Assembly: GCA_947504185.1 (NCBI GenBank)
Contig: CANNGJ010000006.1
Coordinates: 22,797 to 86,796 of the forward strand
Direction of reading: 5' to 3'
DNA from: an uncultured Tenacibaculum sp.
GTDB lineage: Bacteria; Bacteroidota; Bacteroidia; Flavobacteriales; Flavobacteriaceae
DNA: 64,000 nt
The notes beneath the pieces are model-generated. The model did not search any database and was not told the DNA's origin. It was given only the letters and a program-made list of their open reading frames with translations. The position numbers and the translations under genes are program-made. Shown piece by piece: positions 5,877-45,132 of the stretch (positions are counted from its first letter, which is position 1; each line of letters begins with the position of its first letter).

Positions 5877-6755
5877 TTACCACTTGCCGTTTGAGTTTGC
5901 CCAATCTGCTTCTGCTGGAATCGTTTGAACTACATCCCAATGCTCTACAATTTTTCCGTTTTTTAATCGAAACAAATCATAATAAGCAGATGATAAACCA
6001 GAAATGGTATCTGGGAAACCTTGTGACATCATTAATGCAAAATCGCCTTTTACATGTATAAATTTAATTGATTGATAAAAAGGTGTTCCTTCCCCTAAAA
6101 CATTTTGTACAAATCCTTTTAAACCTGCTATATCTGTTCCAGCATTTACACTATGCTGAACAAATTCTGCTTCGTTAAAAAACCTAGTAAAACTACTATC
6201 GCTATATTCTCCTTTTAAGAAAAAGTCTTGCCCAAAAGCTGTTATTAATGTTCTGTTAGCTGTTGTTTGATTCAAATCGGTTACTGGAGTTAATGTACCA
6301 TTTAATTGTGTTGTACTATCTCCATCATTAGATATATTATCTAAATTATCCCAATGTTCAACAATAAGTCCGTTTTCAAAACGAAATACATCAAATACTA
6401 CTTGAGGTGTACCATTATTCCATGTTCCTCCATATTCCGAATGTAAAACAACTATATCGTCATCTTCAAAAGAACGAACTGTATTGATTGTTGTTCCGTT
6501 AAATGCTCCAGATTGTGTTGCTCCAATTACTGCTGCTGCTCCATCTGGATATGATAAATTGTGTTGAATATACGTTGTTGAGCTTATATTTTTTTGCATT
6601 GCAGTTACATCACCACTTTGTATGGCTTGTAAAACAGCTATTGATTTTTCTATGTTAGTTGGTTCTGGTGTTTCGTTATCATCATCATTACAAGCTGTAA
6701 ATAATATTGAAAATGAGATGAAAAACCCTGTTAAAATTAGTTTTGATTTTTTCAT
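5877..6755 (-). CDS. lipoprotein with two SnoaL-like/NTF2-fold domains
   Basis: Start taken at MKKSKLILTGFFISFSILFTAC, which carries a lipobox; the ORF opens at 6818. Both halves carry IVEHWD(N/V). It is a paralogue of 2444-3214. Confidence 0.7.
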   Translation of the reverse strand: MKKSKLILTGFFISFSILFTACNDDDNETPEPTNIEKSIAVLQAIQSGDVTAMQKNISSTTYIQHNLSYPDGAAAVIGATQSGAFNGTTINTVRSFEDDDIVVLHSEYGGTWNNGTPQVVFDVFRFENGLIVEHWDNLDNISNDGDSTTQLNGTLTPVTDLNQTTANRTLITAFGQDFFLKGEYSDSSFTRFFNEAEFVQHSVNAGTDIAGLKGFVQNVLGEGTPFYQSIKFIHVKGDFALMMSQGFPDTISGLSSAYYDLFRLKNGKIVEHWDVVQTIPAEADWANSNGKW

Positions 6756-33254: not shown

Positions 33255-35126
33255 ATGAAGAGAAAACTTGTTCTTATTTTCTTACTTCTTATATCTACCT
33301 ACAGTTCCTCTCAAACTTTAGATCAGTTTAAAAAAAAGGCAGATCACTCACAAAATATAGAAGAAAAGGTAGATGCCCTAATTGAGATTGTTGATTATTT
33401 TTCGAAAAAAAATATCGACAGCGCTTTATTTTACTCCGAAAAAGCAATCACACTTTCTAAAAAACACAAAAAAGACACCTTACTAACCAAAGCTCTCATG
33501 CGTAAAGGTTTATACGCTGCCTACAAAGGAGACCTAGAAAAAAGTCAAGCTATTTTAAACAATAACTTAACAAGACCTATAGACTCTATCTCTTTAGCTT
33601 TAAACTACATGTACATAGGTACATCAAATAAAATTCAAAAAAAGTTCGACAAAGCTATTGAAAACTACTTAAAGGCAATTTATATCTATGAAAAGTTAGA
33701 TAGAAAAGAGAAATTAGCTATGGTATACACAAATATAGCAATAACCAATGCTCAAACTAGAAACTATAAAAATGCAGAACTATATTTTAACAAAGCATTA
33801 CTCAATGTACAAAACAATATAGGATTAGAAATGTCTTTAAACATGAATTTATCTAGTTTAAACCTAGACACTAAAAACTATAATAAGAGCCTTAATTATT
33901 CAAAAAAAGCTGAATTACTAGCTAAAAAAATTGGTTCTAAAAAACATCTATCTGTTATCTATACAAATCTTAGTAATTTATTTGGTCGTGACGATTATAA
34001 AGGTAAAGATTTAAACAAAGCCATAGAATATGGTAAACGATCATTAAAACTAAAAAAAGAGTTTGGAAATAAAGCCAAGTTACCTTACAGCTATGCAACA
34101 TTAGCAAATGCTTATTATGAAAACAAAAATTACGATAAAGCTATTTTTTATCTTGAAGAAGGGCTTGTGCACGCAAAAGGAGCCATAAAAAAAAGTATTC
34201 TAATTCTTTTACAAAAAGCTTATACAATTAATAACAATACTAAAAAAGCCTTATACTTTACTGATGAATACGTGAATTTAACTGATTCATTAGCAAAAAG
34301 AAAACAAGAAGAAAAAGTTGCAGAAATTATAGTAAAACATGAATCAGCTAAAAAACAGCAACAAATAAACTTATTAAACATTAAAAACTCACTACAAAAA
34401 AGTAGAATAAAAAACAAAGACAACCTTCTAATTGGCGGCGGGCTAACCATTTTATTTTTAAGTCTAGTTTTGTATTTATGGTATCTAAATCAAAAAACTA
34501 AACAAGAATTACAACAAGCATCTCTTAAACATAAACTATTGCAAATACAATTAAATCCTCATTTTTTATTTCATTCTTTAAATAGTATTCAATCTTATAT
34601 TTATCAAAATAAAAAAGAGGAATCTATTGAGTATTTATCAAGCTATATTAAATTAATGCGTTCTATTTTTGAAAGTGCTTCTGAAGATTTTATTAGTATT
34701 CAACAAGACGTTCAAACCATTAGAGAGTATCTTAATTTACAAAAACTAAATTTCGAAAAATCAGTAGATTTTTCTGTGAAGTCTGATGATCAAATTTCAC
34801 AATATCAAATCCCCCCTATGCTAGTTCAACCTTACGTTGAAAATGCTATTCAACATGGTATAAAAAATATAAAACACGGTGAAATAAAAATAAACTATTC
34901 TGATAAAAATGAACAAATTTCAGTAACTATTTTTGATAATGGAATGGGATATTACAACAATACTTCTAATAACAAACTACATAAAATCTCTAGTTCTGAA
35001 GTAATTGAACAGCGAATTCAAAATATTGAAAAAACACATCAATTTAATATTAATAGAATTGTTACAACCAATAAAAATGGTACACAAGTAACTCTTACTT
35101 TTCCAAAAAAAATACACGATTTATGA
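33255..35126 (+). CDS. TPR-repeat sensor histidine kinase (His_kinase/LytS type)
   Basis: Signal peptide, about 300 aa of TPR-like repeats, one TM helix (LLIGGGLTILFLSLVLYLWYL), then LQIQLNPHFLFHSLNSIQ and the ATPase segments PPMLVQPYVENAIQHG and FDNGMG. Confidence 0.85.
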   Translation: MKRKLVLIFLLLISTYSSSQTLDQFKKKADHSQNIEEKVDALIEIVDYFSKKNIDSALFYSEKAITLSKKHKKDTLLTKALMRKGLYAAYKGDLEKSQAILNNNLTRPIDSISLALNYMYIGTSNKIQKKFDKAIENYLKAIYIYEKLDRKEKLAMVYTNIAITNAQTRNYKNAELYFNKALLNVQNNIGLEMSLNMNLSSLNLDTKNYNKSLNYSKKAELLAKKIGSKKHLSVIYTNLSNLFGRDDYKGKDLNKAIEYGKRSLKLKKEFGNKAKLPYSYATLANAYYENKNYDKAIFYLEEGLVHAKGAIKKSILILLQKAYTINNNTKKALYFTDEYVNLTDSLAKRKQEEKVAEIIVKHESAKKQQQINLLNIKNSLQKSRIKNKDNLLIGGGLTILFLSLVLYLWYLNQKTKQELQQASLKHKLLQIQLNPHFLFHSLNSIQSYIYQNKKEESIEYLSSYIKLMRSIFESASEDFISIQQDVQTIREYLNLQKLNFEKSVDFSVKSDDQISQYQIPPMLVQPYVENAIQHGIKNIKHGEIKINYSDKNEQISVTIFDNGMGYYNNTSNNKLHKISSSEVIEQRIQNIEKTHQFNINRIVTTNKNGTQVTLTFPKKIHDL

Positions 35127-35857
35127 TTTCTTACGCCATTATAGAAGACGATAAAAACACCGTATCGATGTTGGAAAGTATTATTAGTGAAAATTTCAGC
35201 TCACTTTCTAATCTCGGAAATGCTTCCTCTATTAAAGAAGGAATAGATTTAATTCAAACTACAAACCCTGACTTTATTTTTTTAGATGTAAATCTTGAAG
35301 ATGGTAAAAGCTTTGAAATTTTAGAAAAACTTCCTAACCCTACTTTTAAGATTATTTTTATCACCTCATACAGTAAATATGCTATTGAAGCTTTTAAATT
35401 CAGTGCTTTAGATTTTGTATTAAAACCATTTACTCCTTCTGAAATTACTAATGCTATCAATAAAGTAATAGAACAACAAAATCATGAAGATTATAATCAA
35501 AAAATAACCACCTTTTTTCACAACTATACTTCTTCGCAAAAGAAAATCGTTTTATCAAATGTAGATAGCATTCATTTAGTCTTAATAGAAAACATTTTAT
35601 ACGCTAAATCAGACAATAGCTACACTACTTTCTACATAACAGACGGAAGAGAAATTTTAGTATCAAAATCTTTAAAGTCATTTGACGATAAGCTTTCTCC
35701 ATATTTTTTCTTTAGAATACATCAAAAATATCTCATAAACCTACATCAGATAAAAAAGTACGATAAACGTAATGATAAAATTGTATTATTAAACGATGTT
35801 TCCTTACCCGTGTCACAAGGAAAGAAAAGGCAATTACTTCAAGTCTTAAAAGAGTAA
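35123..35857 (+). CDS. LytTR-family response regulator
   Basis: Receiver domain (PDFIFLDVNLEDG, FVLKPF) plus a LytTR DNA-binding domain (FFRIHQKYLINL). 4-nt overlap with the kinase gene. Confidence 0.9.
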   Translation: MISYAIIEDDKNTVSMLESIISENFSSLSNLGNASSIKEGIDLIQTTNPDFIFLDVNLEDGKSFEILEKLPNPTFKIIFITSYSKYAIEAFKFSALDFVLKPFTPSEITNAINKVIEQQNHEDYNQKITTFFHNYTSSQKKIVLSNVDSIHLVLIENILYAKSDNSYTTFYITDGREILVSKSLKSFDDKLSPYFFFRIHQKYLINLHQIKKYDKRNDKIVLLNDVSLPVSQGKKRQLLQVLKE

Positions 35858-41767: not shown

Positions 41768-41790
41768 AACAATAAAAGCTAGTATTAATA

Positions 41791-41825
41791 AAGAACCAAC
41801 AAATTAGCTTGTTGGTTCTTATTTT
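41791..41825 (+). terminator. intrinsic terminator
   Basis: AAGAACCAACAA-ATTAGC-TTGTTGGTTCTT is a 12-bp stem, followed by ATTTT. Confidence 0.8.
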
Positions 41826-42070
41826 ACACTCCAGCATCTTTTTCAATTAACTGAACAATTAAAGTCGTTAAATTCCTCTACCTTAAACATATTATCAGTG
41901 GCTTTAATATAGCTTACCAGCTCTACTATCATCAGTTAAAGAAGCATATTTCTCGTTCGTAAACACACTAAAATAGCACATTAAAAATCTACTGTTTGAT
42001 TAATATTCATTTTACGGTTTTACCTTACTTTTTTTACGTTTTTTTATCATCAATCTTATTTCATACTATT

Positions 42071-42078
42071 TAGATTTG
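42071..42078 (+). promoter_or_regulatory. Bacteroidota-type -7 box (TAnnTTTG) for the small peptide gene
   Basis: TAGATTTG ends 20 nt before the ATG at 42099. No clear -33 TTG was seen. Confidence 0.35.
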
Positions 42079-42098
42079 AGAAACTTAAAACTCAAATT

Positions 42099-42236
42099 AT
42101 GTTAAAGAACATTTCAAGCTTAGGCACAGCTCTAAACATTACAGAACAACAATCTATTCTCGGAGGTCATGGTATTTGCCCTCCAAGTATGATTCCTAAT
42201 AATTCAGGAGTTTGTGTACCAATGGATCAGCATTAA
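42099..42236 (+). CDS. 45-aa double-glycine-leader peptide precursor (bacteriocin/RiPP-like), missing from the ORF track
   Basis: Translation is MLKNISSLGTALNITEQQSILGG|HGICPPSMIPNNSGVCVPMDQH*. The leader has L-12, E-8, I-4, G-2 and G-1 of the classical GG-leader consensus. It is flanked by a -7 box and a terminator. Confidence 0.55.
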   Translation: MLKNISSLGTALNITEQQSILGGHGICPPSMIPNNSGVCVPMDQH

Positions 42237-42246
42237 ACAAATTATC

Positions 42247-42271
42247 AGCGAACTTCGGTTCGCTTTTTTTT
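42247..42271 (+). terminator. intrinsic terminator of the peptide gene
   Basis: AGCGAAC-TTCG-GTTCGCT followed by T8, starting 11 nt after the stop codon. Confidence 0.8.
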
Positions 42272-42782
42272 AACATTATTAGTTGTCATAAAAACCTCTC
42301 TTTTATTTTTAATTATTTGATATTGTTTTGTGAAATCTGAATTAACCTCCTATTAAAACTTTCTCTTTCCAAACAATAACATTCAATATTTACCGTAATC
42401 TATCTCCTATCCTTAAGCTATATCTTTTTCTACTTCTAGTTCTTCTCCATTTTGGTTTGTTCATTCACTTAATTCTACAAACAAGTAATCTTTAATAAAA
42501 CTAAAGCCTTCCATTTATAGAGAGTTTTAGTTTTTACAAATCTTAAAATCAGTTAATTAAGTTGTAATTTTTAGTTAAACCGACTGTAAACATGTAACAT
42601 AGATATATGAAAAACAGTCTATTAAGCATAACCACCTAAAACTATTTATTATGATAAGCAACAGAACAATAAGAAGATTGAAAGATTTAACGATGCATTC
42701 TAAAAAAATAATTTGGAATAGTAGAAGGAATTACAATCATAGATACAGAATTACATTATTTAGTTAAACAATTAAATAGATT

Positions 42783-42817
42783 AAAAAACGAGCGAACTTA
42801 GAGTTCGCTCGTTTTTT
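42783..42817. terminator. 15-bp-stem hairpin, bidirectional by shape
   Basis: AAAAAACGAGCGAAC-TTAGA-GTTCGCTCGTTTTTT. It shares the GCGAACTT..GTTCGC core with the terminator at 42247. Confidence 0.7.
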
Positions 42818-42909
42818 AATCTATCGGTAAACCACATTAATTACTGCGGATATCCCCTTTTAAATAAGCCAATACAATTATACTTTTGCTATTATTAATA
42901 AATAGAGTT

Positions 42910-43188
42910 ATGATTGAAACTGTTTTTAAAGCTTTAATATTTAAGACTAAGTATATTGAAGTAAATAATTTTATTAATGAAATCGCTGAGGAGAATTCAA
43001 ATATTGAAGATGCTCACAACCAAGTAAAAGAATCTTTAATAAAACTTGTACTATATAAGTTTATTAGCATTAAGGATAAATCACCTAAAGGGAGTTATGT
43101 ATTTAAAGAGCATAATTTTTATAAAGCTAGAGAAGTAGGGAGTATAGAAACATGGTTAGATAAACAAAGGTATTATCAAGAATCATAA
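42910..43188 (+). CDS. hypothetical 92-aa protein
   Basis: ORF with an ATG at 42910 (the track opens at a TTG at 42886). No family recognised. Its 3' end overlaps the convergent menE by 13 nt. Confidence 0.4.
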   Translation: MIETVFKALIFKTKYIEVNNFINEIAEENSNIEDAHNQVKESLIKLVLYKFISIKDKSPKGSYVFKEHNFYKAREVGSIETWLDKQRYYQES

Positions 43189-44228
43189 TACTTTTTTAAT
43201 GTCTCTATTCGCTGAATTTTTTTTGTTTCAGTTTCTACAAAATCTTTAATAAAATAAGTTTGCTTAGGGGTTTCATATTTAGTTAAGCTTTCTGCTTTAC
43301 TAAAATTTATTAGCTGTTTCTTGCCTTCTACAACTAAAACTAAACGCTCTCCTAAAGCCCTATCTTGTTCAGCAATCACAAAAAAACGACTAGAGATAAT
43401 AGCAGATAGTTTTTCTTCAATTTTTTCAGGGTGTAATTTTACACCTCCAGAATTTATAACATTATCAAAACGTCCAAGCCATTCAAACTGAGTATCTGAA
43501 ATTAAATTCACTACATCGTTTGTTACAATTCTTTCTTCTGATAGTTTAGACGCTTCAATTACCAAACAATTACGAACGTCTTGTGAGAGTTTTATATTTG
43601 GCAATGTCTGATAAATAGATTTTTCATCTGAAATAACAAATTGATTCAGCTTTTTTACAGCTATATGCGTAATTGTTTCTGTCATACCATAAGTAGCATA
43701 CACTTTTGTAGAAACGTTTTGAATAGCCGATATTAAATCATTAGAAACCACACCTCCACCTACAATTAATTGCTTCAATTTATATAATTCACTTAATGAA
43801 TTTCTTAATTGTAACGGAACCATTGCTGAAAAATCGTATTCTTTTTTCAAGCCTTTTAATGGACTTGAAACAGGATCAACAATATCAAGTTCCCAACCTA
43901 AAATTAATGCTCTTACCAATATCATTTTACCCGCAATATAATCGGTAGATAAACACAGTAAAGTAGTAGTATTTTCTTTCAAATTAAAAAAATCTCCTGT
44001 AGCTAAGGCTGAGTTTATCATAAACTCTTTTTTCAATTGAATCGACTTTGGTTTACCTGTAGACCCAGAAGTTTGTACAATTACATAATCACCTTCGTTA
44101 AACCAATCAGATAGAAATGAAAATATGGAATCATTAATTTCTTTAGAAAAACTTAAAAGGTCCTCTTTTGTAGTAAACGATGTTGAGTTTAACTTAAAAC
44201 TTCTATGAATATTATTATTCTTCAACAA
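43176..44228 (-). CDS. menE: O-succinylbenzoate-CoA ligase (short Bacteroidota form)
   Basis: AMP-binding motif TSGSTGKPK and YGMTET. 350 aa, in an operon with menC and menA. Confidence 0.8.
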   Translation of the reverse strand: MLKNNNIHRSFKLNSTSFTTKEDLLSFSKEINDSIFSFLSDWFNEGDYVIVQTSGSTGKPKSIQLKKEFMINSALATGDFFNLKENTTTLLCLSTDYIAGKMILVRALILGWELDIVDPVSSPLKGLKKEYDFSAMVPLQLRNSLSELYKLKQLIVGGGVVSNDLISAIQNVSTKVYATYGMTETITHIAVKKLNQFVISDEKSIYQTLPNIKLSQDVRNCLVIEASKLSEERIVTNDVVNLISDTQFEWLGRFDNVINSGGVKLHPEKIEEKLSAIISSRFFVIAEQDRALGERLVLVVEGKKQLINFSKAESLTKYETPKQTYFIKDFVETETKKIQRIETLKKYYDS

Positions 44229-45132
44229 TAATCGGTTTTTCTATTTTTCCGAATAGTTTTTCTTTCCAGTTTTTCCAACCATATTTTTTTGATAATAACA
44301 AAAGGTATAGTGGATATACAACAAAAACTGGAAGCATCATTAACAACAATAAACTAGGCTCAGAATGATCGATAAACAAAGCATCTGTTTGAAAAACTGC
44401 CCAATTAGAAGCTACTAAAGTTGCAGCAATAATATTATTAATCGCATGAATACCTAAAGCCAACTCAGTTCCTTCATCCATTAAAGTAATAATACCAAAT
44501 AAGAAACCGGTACCTATGTAAAATACCATAATACTAGATCCTAATTTCGTAACTTCTGGATTTAAAATATGCATTACTCCAAAAAGTACTGAAGTAATAA
44601 TTAAAGGAACCCATCTGTTTTTAGCTAAAATTCCTATTCCTTGCATTAAGTACCCTCTAAATAATAATTCTTCTAATGATGTTTGTAAAGGAAGTAATAT
44701 TAATGAAACAGCCAATAAAAAGAAAAAAGGACCAGCTTTAAAATTCCAAACATAATCTTCAGGAGTTAAAAAATAACCTATAGACAAAAATGCTATAGAT
44801 ATAAGTCCCCATGAAAAGAAACCATAAAAAAATCGTTTCCAATCTACTTTGTTTCTACTTGTTATAAGCGACTTAATTGAACGTTGATGTAAAAACTTAA
44901 CAAAGACTAATAACATAACTAATAATACAGCAAAAAGAATTAGGCTCTCTATTAAGAAAATGTTCTTATCTCCATTAAAATCCTCCGTTTCATTTATCAA
45001 TTCATCATATGCTTCTGGCATTAGAAAATAAAGCATGAAGTTTAAAATAAATGGAGACATTACAACAAGAATGGTAATTAACCAACGCCAAAATTCATTA
45101 TTTCCTTTATATGCTTGCTGTATAAAATTCAT
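44215..45132 (-). CDS. CPBP-family intramembrane glutamic endopeptidase (CAAX/Abi type)
   Basis: Motifs SLEELLFRGY (EExxxR), FGVMHILN (FxxxH) and GIHAINN (HxxxN), on 7-8 TM helices. Confidence 0.85.
   Translation of the reverse strand: MNFIQQAYKGNNEFWRWLITILVVMSPFILNFMLYFLMPEAYDELINETEDFNGDKNIFLIESLILFAVLLVMLLVFVKFLHQRSIKSLITSRNKVDWKRFFYGFFSWGLISIAFLSIGYFLTPEDYVWNFKAGPFFFLLAVSLILLPLQTSLEELLFRGYLMQGIGILAKNRWVPLIITSVLFGVMHILNPEVTKLGSSIMVFYIGTGFLFGIITLMDEGTELALGIHAINNIIAATLVASNWAVFQTDALFIDHSEPSLLLLMMLPVFVVYPLYLLLLSKKYGWKNWKEKLFGKIEKPIIVEE

What the first reader, a model, noticed from the sequence alone, without database searches (positions are those of the whole stretch)
42071..42271. Unannotated double-glycine-leader peptide gene (orphan bacteriocin/RiPP-like precursor) with its own promoter box and terminator
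- A 45-codon ORF (42099-42236), too short for the supplied track, encodes MLKNISSLGTALNITEQQSILGG-HGICPPSMIPNNSGVCVPMDQH.
- The first 23 residues fit the classical double-glycine leader recognised by C39-peptidase ABC exporters: L at -12, E at -8, I at -4, GG at -2/-1. This is also the LxxxEQxxIxGG form common in Bacteroidota precursor peptides.
- The 22-aa core is Pro-rich with two Cys 12 residues apart, so a possible disulfide or thioether loop.
- The gene is a self-contained unit: a TAGATTTG -7 box ends 20 nt upstream, and a GC-stem/T8 terminator starts 11 nt downstream.
- It sits in an otherwise non-coding 1.1-kb island.
- No peptidase-ABC exporter, HlyD partner, modifying enzyme or dedicated immunity gene is present in the window, so the processing and export partners and the function (bacteriocin, signal, modified RiPP) are unknown.
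Basis: partly seen in the sequence, partly recalled or inferred. Interest (0 to 1): 0.7.

Follow-up and report, generated by a model that had tools for sequence, protein, structure and literature searches.

The report
Secreted cysteine-peptide gene, double-glycine leader
The 45-codon gene is real and belongs to a large family of small secreted, cysteine-containing peptides in marine Flavobacteriaceae that share one export leader but have very different mature parts; this is an ordinary kind of bacteriocin-like gene, and this copy is the shortest and may be partly decayed.

Summary
Observation confirmed. The ORF at 42099-42236 (+), the TAGATTTG box at 42071-42078 and the GC-stem/T8 terminator at 42247-42272 are all present.

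The interpretation as a double-glycine-leader prepeptide is supported by comparison:
- The 23-aa leader matches about 60 intact genes in Tenacibaculum, Dokdonia, Aquimarina and Maribacter. More than 600 leader-pattern matches occur in metagenomes.
- These genes share the leader (consensus MLKNISSLG..LNK.EQKSI.GG) but have hypervariable, mostly 4-6-Cys, anionic cores.
- Both leader and alignable cores are under purifying selection (pN/pS 0.38 and 0.23).
- About half of the genes share a palindromic operator, TACGG-N5-CCTTA, 73-92 nt upstream of the ATG. The window has it at 42013-42027. Several also share the same UUCG-loop terminator.

No exporter lies in the window or within 6-10 kb of any fetched family locus. 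In T. ovolyticum, however, two peptides with a related leader sit between a C39-like/VKOR/thioredoxin fusion gene and a C39-peptidase ABC transporter gene.

The window copy lies in a 1.4-kb insertion that the nearest relatives lack. It has the shortest typical core (22 aa, 2 Cys) and could be a decayed 4-Cys paralogue.

Family members are already in databases as "hypothetical" or "bacteriocin-like" proteins. Verdict: new member of a known kind; function untested.

The parts
42013..42027 (+). Palindromic operator TACGG-TTTTA-CCTTA, 86 nt upstream of the ATG. It is the presumed binding site of an unidentified dimeric regulator.
   Evidence: It is the only exact match to the pattern in the 64-kb window. 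The same palindrome lies 73-92 nt upstream of the ATG in 31 of 63 family genes across Tenacibaculum, Dokdonia and Maribacter.
42035..42039 (+). Third half-site TACGT (family consensus TTAYGGTTTT), 22 bp downstream of the first half-site.
   Evidence: It falls in conserved columns of the 16-sequence upstream alignment A4.
42071..42078 (+). Bacteroidota-type -7 promoter box TAGATTTG (consensus TAnnTTTG). There is no TTTG at the expected -33 position.
   Evidence: Read directly from the sequence. The block TAnnTTTGAGAAACTTAAAA is conserved in Tenacibaculum paralogues. The exact box occurs in 13 of 63 family genes.
42079..42098 (+). Conserved A-rich stretch between the -7 box and the ATG (AGAAACTTAAAACTCAAATT), probably holding the transcription start and a short 5' UTR.
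   Evidence: Alignment A4. blastn finds 74-82% identity with L005, L010 and L019 copies from about 42000 onwards.
42099..42167 (+). Leader peptide, 23 codons: MLKNISSLGTALNITEQQSILGG. The predicted cleavage site is after G22-G23.
   Evidence: 52 bits against the family leader HMM. Leader pN/pS is 0.375 at pS 0.56 over 60 members.
42168..42236 (+). Core peptide HGICPPSMIPNNSGVCVPMDQH plus the stop codon. It has 22 aa, two Cys with 11 residues between them, and net charge -1.
   Evidence: It resembles the 4-Cys subfamily CPxxYCxNxxGGCTN..FFDDC of L004 and L005, with the same C1-C3 spacing. No orthologue was found.
42247..42272 (+). Intrinsic terminator: a 7-bp stem with a UUCG tetraloop followed by T8.
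   Evidence: The same stem-loop follows family genes with unrelated cores in L001, L010, L014, L019, L036, L039, L044 and L045. It occurs in 12 of 63 genes.
41768..43175 (.). Lineage-specific 1.4-kb insertion between the zinc-ribbon gene and the AMP-binding (MenE-like) gene. It carries the peptide cassette.
   Evidence: In the nearest relatives (69-72% protein identity) the two flanking genes abut, or alginate lyase genes occupy the junction.

Best explanation
The ORF is a real, transcriptionally autonomous gene for a 45-aa prepeptide. It belongs to a multi-copy family of marine Flavobacteriaceae, called here the MLKNISSLG-leader family.

Proposed mechanism; every step below is inferred, none shown:
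1. An activator binds the TACGG-N5-CCTTA palindrome about 60 nt upstream of the start site. It drives a promoter that has a -7 box but no -33 element.
2. The short mRNA ends at the UUCG hairpin and T8 tract.
3. The 23-aa double-glycine leader is recognised by the C39 peptidase domain of a peptidase-containing ABC transporter encoded elsewhere in the genome. The transporter cuts after G22-G23 and exports the 22-residue core.
4. The two Cys are oxidised to one disulfide, closing a 13-residue ring. The likely enzyme is a VKOR-thioredoxin type oxidoreductase carrying a C39-like leader-binding domain.
5. The product is a secreted, mildly anionic, Pro-rich peptide used in interactions between cells. 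Antagonism is the default guess; the family's anionic cores make classical membrane attack unlikely.

Shown: family membership, purifying selection on the family, conserved cis elements, and genetic linkage of a related leader to a PCAT and an oxidoreductase in the same genus.
For: - Family size: 27 genome loci and 12 metagenome loci hold intact genes with the same leader and different Cys-rich cores. More than 600 leader-pattern matches occur in metagenomes.
- Leader selection: pN/pS 0.375 at pS 0.56.
- Core selection: pooled pN/pS is 0.23 over alignable pairs. For example, L015 and L042 have identical cores despite 7 synonymous changes.
- Promoter: the operator, the -7 box and the stretch between the box and the ATG are conserved.
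- Terminator: identical in L001 even though the core is unrelated.
- Leader type: members hit GG-leader models weakly (NF047798 in 7 of 37; also TIGR04149, TIGR01847, ComC).
- PCAT link in T. ovolyticum (L047): a C39-like/VKOR/Thioredoxin_4 fusion gene is followed by two 70-aa Cys-rich peptides and then a PCAT N-terminus.
  - The two peptides have the leader MKKSILNLGKxLxKTxQKDIFGG, which scores 20-22 bits in register against the family HMM.
  - The PCAT N-terminus carries a KDCGPTC motif that fits the catalytic Cys of C39 peptidases.
  - Those two peptides use the same 'class B' promoter (AGACAC-N9-GTGTCT..TAAATGTTCA) as dispersed family members L008, L018, L029, L037, L038 and L046.
- A second VKOR / GG-peptide / PCAT locus exists in L050.
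- Precedent: bacteroidetocins are GG-leader, disulfide-bonded peptides encoded with a PCAT and a thiol oxidoreductase and without an immunity gene (PMC6671954).
Against: - No PCAT, membrane-fusion partner or oxidoreductase lies in the window or within 6-10 kb of any fetched family locus. The rest of this genome could not be searched.
- The window peptide hits no curated GG-leader model.
- Position -7 of the leader is Q, not a hydrophobic residue. Position 14 is I where 52 of 60 members have K.
- No orthologue of this core exists in the collections searched, so selection on this copy cannot be measured.
- The core is the shortest typical one and has 2 Cys where most members have 4-6.
- The PCAT linkage rests on one locus with a related, not identical, leader, and that PCAT gene is cut by the contig end.
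Confidence: 0.62

Rival explanations
1. It is a decayed paralogue. The cassette descends from the 4-Cys subfamily (C-P-x-x-Y-C-x-N-x-x-G-G-C-T-N...F-F-D-D-C), has lost Cys2 and the C-terminal part with Cys4, and is an intact-looking but functionless remnant in a recent insertion.
For: - The C1-C3 spacing is the same as in L004 and L005, but Cys2 is replaced by Ile.
- After Cys3 the +2 frame reads C-T-N, like the subfamily (TGTACCAATG against TGTACGAACG). This fits a 2-nt TG insertion in a TGTG run.
- It has the shortest typical core and only 2 Cys.
- Residue I14 is unusual in the leader.
- The nearest relatives lack the island.
- Truncated family genes exist elsewhere: L005:6380 and L015:8697.
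Against: - Promoter, operator, leader, GG site, stop codon and terminator are all intact. The stop-to-hairpin distance is 10 nt, within the 7-18 nt seen in other copies with this hairpin.
- Both missing Cys could be the two partners of one disulfide. The number left is even, as in a minimised functional variant. Four other members also have 2 Cys.
- Beyond the three codons C-T-N, the shifted frame shows no similarity and would read through the terminator.
Confidence: 0.25
2. It is a peptide pheromone. The exported peptide is sensed by the TPR/His_kinase sensor and LytTR response regulator at 33255-35857, as in ComC/BlpC/PlnA systems.
For: - A His_kinase (PF06580) sensor and a LytTR regulator lie 6 kb upstream.
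- Similar pairs lie 2-7 kb upstream of family genes in L007, L008 and L016/L017.
- The half-sites TACGG and TACGT are 22 bp apart, roughly the 21-22 bp repeat period I recall for LytTR-type binding sites (the period is from memory).
Against: - Only three independent co-occurrences among about 22 loci, and such regulator pairs are common in Flavobacteriia (from memory).
- The main element is a palindrome, not a direct repeat.
- There are dozens of hypervariable copies per genome (at least 14 in T. aiptasiae). That fits a toxin or effector repertoire better than one cognate signal.
- The operator is absent upstream of the kinase-regulator operon.
Confidence: 0.07
3. It is an enzymatically modified RiPP precursor (radical-SAM thioether or lanthipeptide-like) whose modifying enzyme is encoded elsewhere.
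For: - Three of 37 members hit TIGR04149 (rSAM-modified RiPP leader) and one hits a pinensin leader model, at E about 0.01-0.03.
- The cores contain Cys, Ser and Thr.
Against: - No radical-SAM, LanB/C/M or cyclodehydratase gene was found among the neighbours checked at the fetched loci.
- The enzyme linked to related leaders is a VKOR-thioredoxin oxidoreductase, which points to plain disulfides.
- Most Cys counts are even: 50 of 60.
Confidence: 0.05
4. It is a chance ORF, or a non-coding RNA element, in an AT-rich spacer.
For: - The window is 31% G+C, where short ORFs are frequent.
- The peptide is not in the protein collection.
Against: - The leader HMM gives 52 bits.
- The family shows synonymous-rich divergence.
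- No Rfam match reaches a gathering score.
Confidence: 0.01

Closest known systems
Bacteroidetocins (proposed class IIf bacteriocins of Bacteroidales; Coyne et al. 2019, PMC6671954)
   Same: - Bacteroidota peptides with a double-glycine leader.
- Cys-containing mature part with disulfides.
- Made with a C39-peptidase ABC transporter and a dedicated thiol oxidoreductase.
- No immunity gene.
- The T. ovolyticum locus L047 has the same logic: oxidoreductase, peptides, PCAT.
   Different: - Leader is 15-16 aa there and 23 aa here.
- Mature part is 42-48 aa, four Cys and basic (+2 to +6) there. Here it is 22 aa, two Cys and net -1, and the family median is -2.
- Bacteroidetocin genes sit inside the four-gene cluster. 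The window gene is a stand-alone cassette far from any exporter.
- No sequence similarity was detected.
Flavobacteriia 'bacteriocin-like protein' leader families (NCBIfam NF047798 leader_Chryseo; TIGR04149; TIGR01847 bacteriocin-type signal sequence)
   Same: - Short N-terminal leader ending in GG, followed by a small, often Cys-rich core.
- 7 of 37 family members hit NF047798, and others hit TIGR04149 or TIGR01847, at E about 0.007-0.014.
- UniProt names some members 'Bacteriocin-like protein' or 'Bacteriocin-type signal sequence-containing protein'.
   Different: - The window peptide matches none of these models.
- The MLKNISSLG leader family has no dedicated curated model among those scanned.
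Prochlorosin precursors (ProcA) of marine Prochlorococcus/Synechococcus (recalled from memory, not tested here)
   Same: - Many dispersed precursor genes per genome.
- One conserved double-glycine-type leader and hypervariable cores.
- Served in trans by one processing and export machinery.
   Different: - Prochlorosins have long (about 60+ aa) Nif11-type leaders and are lanthionine-cyclised by ProcM.
- Here the leader is 23 aa and the linked enzyme is a disulfide oxidoreductase.
- Trans-processing is inferred here, not shown.
Streptococcal blp/com-type class II bacteriocin and pheromone cassettes
   Same: - GG-leader peptides as short stand-alone transcription units.
- Conserved promoter operators shared across a regulon, with export by a distant PCAT.
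   Different: - Gram-positive hosts, linear cationic peptides, LytTR direct-repeat operators and adjacent immunity genes.
- None of these features is seen here.

Membership tests
Double-glycine-leader peptides (substrates of C39-peptidase ABC transporters) | N-terminal leader of about 15-30 aa ending in GG (or GA/GS), with no hydrophobic Sec-type core | tested here: met
   The 23-aa leader ends in G22-G23 and has no hydrophobic stretch. GG sits at the same positions in 52-57 of 60 family members.
Double-glycine-leader peptides (substrates of C39-peptidase ABC transporters) | Conserved hydrophobic residues at -4, -7, -12 and -15/-16, and an acidic residue at -8 | tested here: inconclusive
   I at -4, L at -12, L at -16 and E at -8 are present and nearly invariant in the family. 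Position -7 is Q in 55 of 60 members, not hydrophobic.
Double-glycine-leader peptides (substrates of C39-peptidase ABC transporters) | Match to a curated GG-leader model (TIGR01847, NF047798 and similar) | tested here: not met
   The window peptide has no NCBIfam or Pfam hit at E <= 10. Family members give only weak hits, with best E-values between 0.0027 and 0.05.
Double-glycine-leader peptides (substrates of C39-peptidase ABC transporters) | A cognate C39-peptidase ABC transporter in the same genome | not testable with these tools
   None lies in the 64-kb window, and the rest of the genome is not available. In the same genus, related-leader peptides lie next to a PCAT gene in T. ovolyticum.
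Double-glycine-leader peptides (substrates of C39-peptidase ABC transporters) | Cleavage after GG coupled to export | not testable with these tools
   Needs mass spectrometry or an in vitro protease assay.
MLKNISSLG-leader peptide family of Flavobacteriaceae (defined here) | Leader matching the family HMM over all 23 positions | tested here: met
   52.0 bits, positions 1-23. The window copy was one of the sequences used to build the model.
MLKNISSLG-leader peptide family of Flavobacteriaceae (defined here) | Conserved promoter architecture: palindromic operator 73-92 nt upstream, then a -7 box and an A-rich stretch up to the ATG | tested here: met
   Operator at 42013-42027, 86 nt upstream of the ATG; TAGATTTGAGAAACTTAAAAC is conserved.
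MLKNISSLG-leader peptide family of Flavobacteriaceae (defined here) | Cys-rich core, typically 4-6 Cys in 25-54 aa | tested here: inconclusive
   The window core has 22 aa and 2 Cys. Five of 60 members have 2 Cys and 55 have 4-6.
Bacteroidetocins (class IIf) | 15-16-aa leader and a 42-48-aa basic mature peptide with four similarly placed Cys | tested here: not met
   Here the leader is 23 aa and the core is 22 aa with 2 Cys and net charge -1, against the description in PMC6671954.
Bacteroidetocins (class IIf) | Gene lies inside a cluster with a 5-TM protein, a thiol oxidoreductase and a PCAT | tested here: not met
   The flanking genes are a zinc-ribbon protein, a small ORF and the men operon.
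TIGR04149-type rSAM-modified RiPP precursors | Model match and a radical-SAM maturase nearby | tested here: not met
   The window peptide has no model hit. No radical-SAM gene was found among the neighbours checked in the window or the family loci.

The most novel reading that the evidence does not exclude
Marine Flavobacteriaceae maintain a regulon-wide library of dozens of dispersed, single-gene cassettes. Each consists of a shared operator, a shared 23-aa GG leader, a hypervariable anionic disulfide-rich core and a shared terminator. All are processed in trans by one PCAT and one oxidoreductase that carries its own C39-like leader-binding domain. This would be a disulfide-based counterpart of the prochlorosin system. 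The products may act on targets other than bacterial membranes, such as receptors, enzymes or eukaryotic hosts. The window gene would be a minimised one-disulfide member.
Probability: 0.3. Interest if true: 0.6.

Novelty: new member of a known kind. Interest (0 to 1): 0.4.

Why it matters
For this window the result is modest. It adds one small, previously uncalled gene whose product is most likely a secreted, disulfide-looped peptide.

The family is more useful than this single gene:
- It has many copies per genome: at least 14 in 13 kb of T. aiptasiae, and five contigs of one Dokdonia MAG.
- It is conserved across genera that include fish pathogens (Tenacibaculum).
- It has no curated model and, as far as the literature searches show, no experimental study.
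- It carries a sharply defined operator that should allow the regulator to be identified.
- The fusion of a C39-like domain to VKOR-thioredoxin next to the PCAT suggests leader-guided disulfide formation, which can be tested directly.

Tried and rejected
- Curated models: NCBIfam and Pfam give no hit for the window peptide.
- First protein search: the word-index search with the peptide returned only one relative, P0001. That was low sensitivity, not absence, because exact look-ups later showed family members are deposited.
- Viral contigs: two leader-pattern scans gave only chance hits, L002 and L003.
- Orthologue of the core:
  - The metagenome scan with a back-translated core pattern found nothing.
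  - The exact look-up of the flanking zinc-ribbon protein found nothing.
  - phmmer of the peptide against 1.84 billion representatives gave two repeat-protein artefacts.
- Exporter next to family genes: none was found. The only ABC protein found, in L030, looks like a soluble two-ATPase (ABC-F-type) protein, not a PCAT.
- Kinase and LytTR regulator as the dedicated regulator: co-occurrence is too sparse to claim.
- Rce1-like (CAAX protease family) gene at 44215-45132 as an immunity gene: rejected, because it is conserved in the men operon of relatives that lack the peptide.
- Non-coding RNA: no Rfam match reaches a gathering score.
- Literature: the searches found no paper on this family.

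Full report
**1. The observation**

The window is AT-rich (31% G+C). The ORF at 42099-42236 (+) starts with ATG and encodes MLKNISSLGTALNITEQQSILGG-HGICPPSMIPNNSGVCVPMDQH.

TAGATTTG lies at 42071-42078 and ends 20 nt before the ATG. AGCGAAC-TTCG-GTTCGCT followed by T8 lies at 42247-42272. The terminator scan found 5 sites in the region against 0.2 expected in shuffles. The hairpin folds at -9.8 kcal/mol, z = -4.45.

A generic GG-leader pattern finds no other such ORF in the window. No ORF of at least 150 aa in the window has both an ABC signature and a Walker A motif. All elements of the observation are therefore confirmed.

**2. A large family shares the leader**

The peptide hits no NCBIfam or Pfam model. 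The first protein search gave one relative, P0001. Its leader is almost identical (MLKNISSLGTTLDKTEQQSISGG), its Cys-rich core is unrelated, and its terminator hairpin is identical at the DNA level.

- A genome scan with the two leaders found 27 loci in Tenacibaculum, Dokdonia, Aquimarina and Maribacter.
- A leader HMM applied to six-frame translations of these loci found about 55 genes.
- There are at least 14 copies in 13 kb of T. aiptasiae, plus several truncated copies.
- Over 60 unique full-length members the leader is M-L-K-N-I-S-[SN]-L-G-x-x-L-N-K-x-E-Q-[KQ]-x-I-x-G-G.
- Cores are 20-54 aa. They have 2 Cys (5 members), 4 (33), 5 (10) or 6 (12).
- Cores are 13% Cys, with a median net charge of -2.

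**3. The family is protein-coding**

Leader pN/pS is 0.375 at pS 0.56. For alignable orthologous or paralogous cores the pooled pN/pS is 0.23. Some pairs have identical peptides despite 7 synonymous changes. Rfam gives nothing above a gathering score.

Members are deposited in NCBI and UniProt as 'hypothetical protein'. Some are automatically named 'Bacteriocin-like protein' or 'Bacteriocin-type signal sequence-containing protein'. The window peptide itself is not in the collection.

**4. Conserved cis elements**

DNA similarity between the window and Tenacibaculum paralogues starts about 100 nt upstream of the ATG. It covers the leader, stops at the core and resumes at the terminator.

- The upstream alignment shows TA[AC]GG-N5-CC[GT]TA, then CTTnTnTTAYGGTTTT, an AT-rich spacer, and TAnnTTTGAGAAACTTAAAA.
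- The palindrome lies 73-92 nt upstream of the ATG in 31 of 63 genes and in three genera.
- In the fetched DNA, sites matching a looser form of the palindrome are scattered and seldom lie upstream of other genes. In the window the only exact site is 42013-42027.
- One such palindrome drives a GG peptide with a different leader at L023:9620.
- Seven genes carry a second promoter type, TCGCGA..AGACAC-N9-GTGTCT..TAAATGATCA.
- The window promoter has no TTTG at the -33 position.
- Given that and the operator's position near -64, I infer dependence on an activator. The Bacteroidota promoter consensus is taken from memory.

**5. Genomic setting**

The nearest homologues of the flanking zinc-ribbon protein are 69-72% identical. 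In two of them the zinc-ribbon gene abuts the AMP-binding (MenE-like) gene. In another, seen on two contigs (L031, L032), alginate lyase genes occupy the junction.

In an uncultured Tenacibaculum (L020) the interval between the YebC-family gene and the zinc-ribbon gene holds one family gene and a second, more divergent GG peptide, among VWA and VIT genes. The window's 41768-43175 is therefore a lineage-specific insertion in a variable junction.

**6. Export and maturation**

No PCAT lies within 6-10 kb of any family locus.

In T. ovolyticum (L047) the gene order is as follows:
- a 539-aa protein with a C39-like domain, VKOR and Thioredoxin_4; the stretch I aligned by eye to the catalytic motif has no Cys;
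- two 70-aa Cys-rich peptides with the leader MKKSILNLGKxLxKTxQKDIFGG, scoring 20-22 bits in register against the family HMM;
- a PCAT N-terminus with KDCGPTC and the start of the membrane domain, cut by the contig end.

These two peptides use the second promoter type seen at dispersed family members. Another Flavobacteriales locus, L050, repeats the order VKOR, GG peptide, PCAT.

This matches the bacteroidetocin logic, in which a PCAT and a thiol oxidoreductase are both required and no immunity gene exists (PMC6671954). It links the leader type to a PCAT and to disulfide formation. It does so in another species and through one locus.

**7. Is this copy functional?**

The core aligns with a 4-Cys subfamily (L004, L005) at identical C1-C3 spacing. 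Cys2 is replaced by Ile and the C-terminal part with Cys4 is missing.

After Cys3 the +2 frame reads C-T-N, as in the subfamily. This is compatible with a 2-nt insertion in a TGTG run.

Against decay:
- All regulatory and processing signals are intact.
- The stop-to-hairpin spacing is typical.
- The two lost Cys may be the partners of one disulfide.

No orthologue exists to measure selection. I give decay about 25%.

**8. Verdict**

This is a real GG-leader prepeptide cassette. It is a new member of a known kind, the bacteriocin-like, disulfide-bonded peptides of Bacteroidota. Its family is uncharacterised but already deposited.

The family's architecture has moderate interest: dispersed cassettes, a shared operator, anionic hypervariable cores, and an oxidoreductase with a C39-like domain. 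The single gene has low to moderate interest.

Noticed in passing
window 33255-35857 (+): A sensor kinase (TPR repeats plus His_kinase PF06580; 33255-35126) overlaps a LytTR response regulator (35123-35857), 6 kb upstream of the peptide gene. Homologous pairs lie 2-7 kb upstream of family genes in L007, L008 and L016/L017. This may be chance.
   Followed up: partly
window 42910-43188 (+): A conserved ORF of about 92 aa with no Pfam match, convergent with and overlapping the end of the MenE-like gene. A 46%-identical homologue lies in T. caenipelagi (L019:11710-11985) between two family peptide genes. No other fetched locus has it.
   Followed up: partly
window 42776-42824: A perfect 23-bp inverted repeat with a 3-nt loop (ATAGATTAAAAAACGAGCGAACT / AGTTCGCTCGTTTTTTAATCTAT). 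It looks like a bidirectional terminator. Its inner stem, GCGAACT, resembles the peptide gene's terminator stem.
   Followed up: no
window 41768-43175 versus L031-L034: The junction between the zinc-ribbon gene and the MenE-like gene is a variable spot. It is empty in two relatives, holds alginate lyase genes in another, and holds the peptide island here.
   Followed up: yes
L047:7645-9264 (T. ovolyticum): One protein combines a C39-like domain (the stretch aligned by eye to the catalytic motif has no Cys), VKOR and a thioredoxin domain. It is encoded just upstream of two GG-leader Cys-rich peptides and a PCAT. This suggests leader-guided disulfide formation.
   Followed up: partly
L005:500-13200 (T. 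aiptasiae): At least 14 family genes lie in 13 kb, most with their own operator and promoter. They include truncated copies (for example at 6380) and members of the subfamily closest to the window core.
   Followed up: partly
L048/L049:4890-11060 (T. finnmarkense): A different GG-leader peptide pair (MKNLNDFGVQELSGKE..GG with hydrophobic cores) lies with an Rce1-like gene and a PCAT that is split into a 172-aa C39 piece and a 199-aa ATPase piece. The exporter is probably degraded.
   Followed up: no
L001:357-6204: The closest leader relative (P0001) sits on a 12-kb contig with a DNA methylase, an HTH protein and a 979-aa protein. This looks like a mobile element, so cassettes may move horizontally.
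   Followed up: no
L007:10263-10300: An operator-plus-half-site remnant, 94% identical to window 42010-42045, has no peptide gene downstream. It appears to be a relic of a lost cassette.
   Followed up: no
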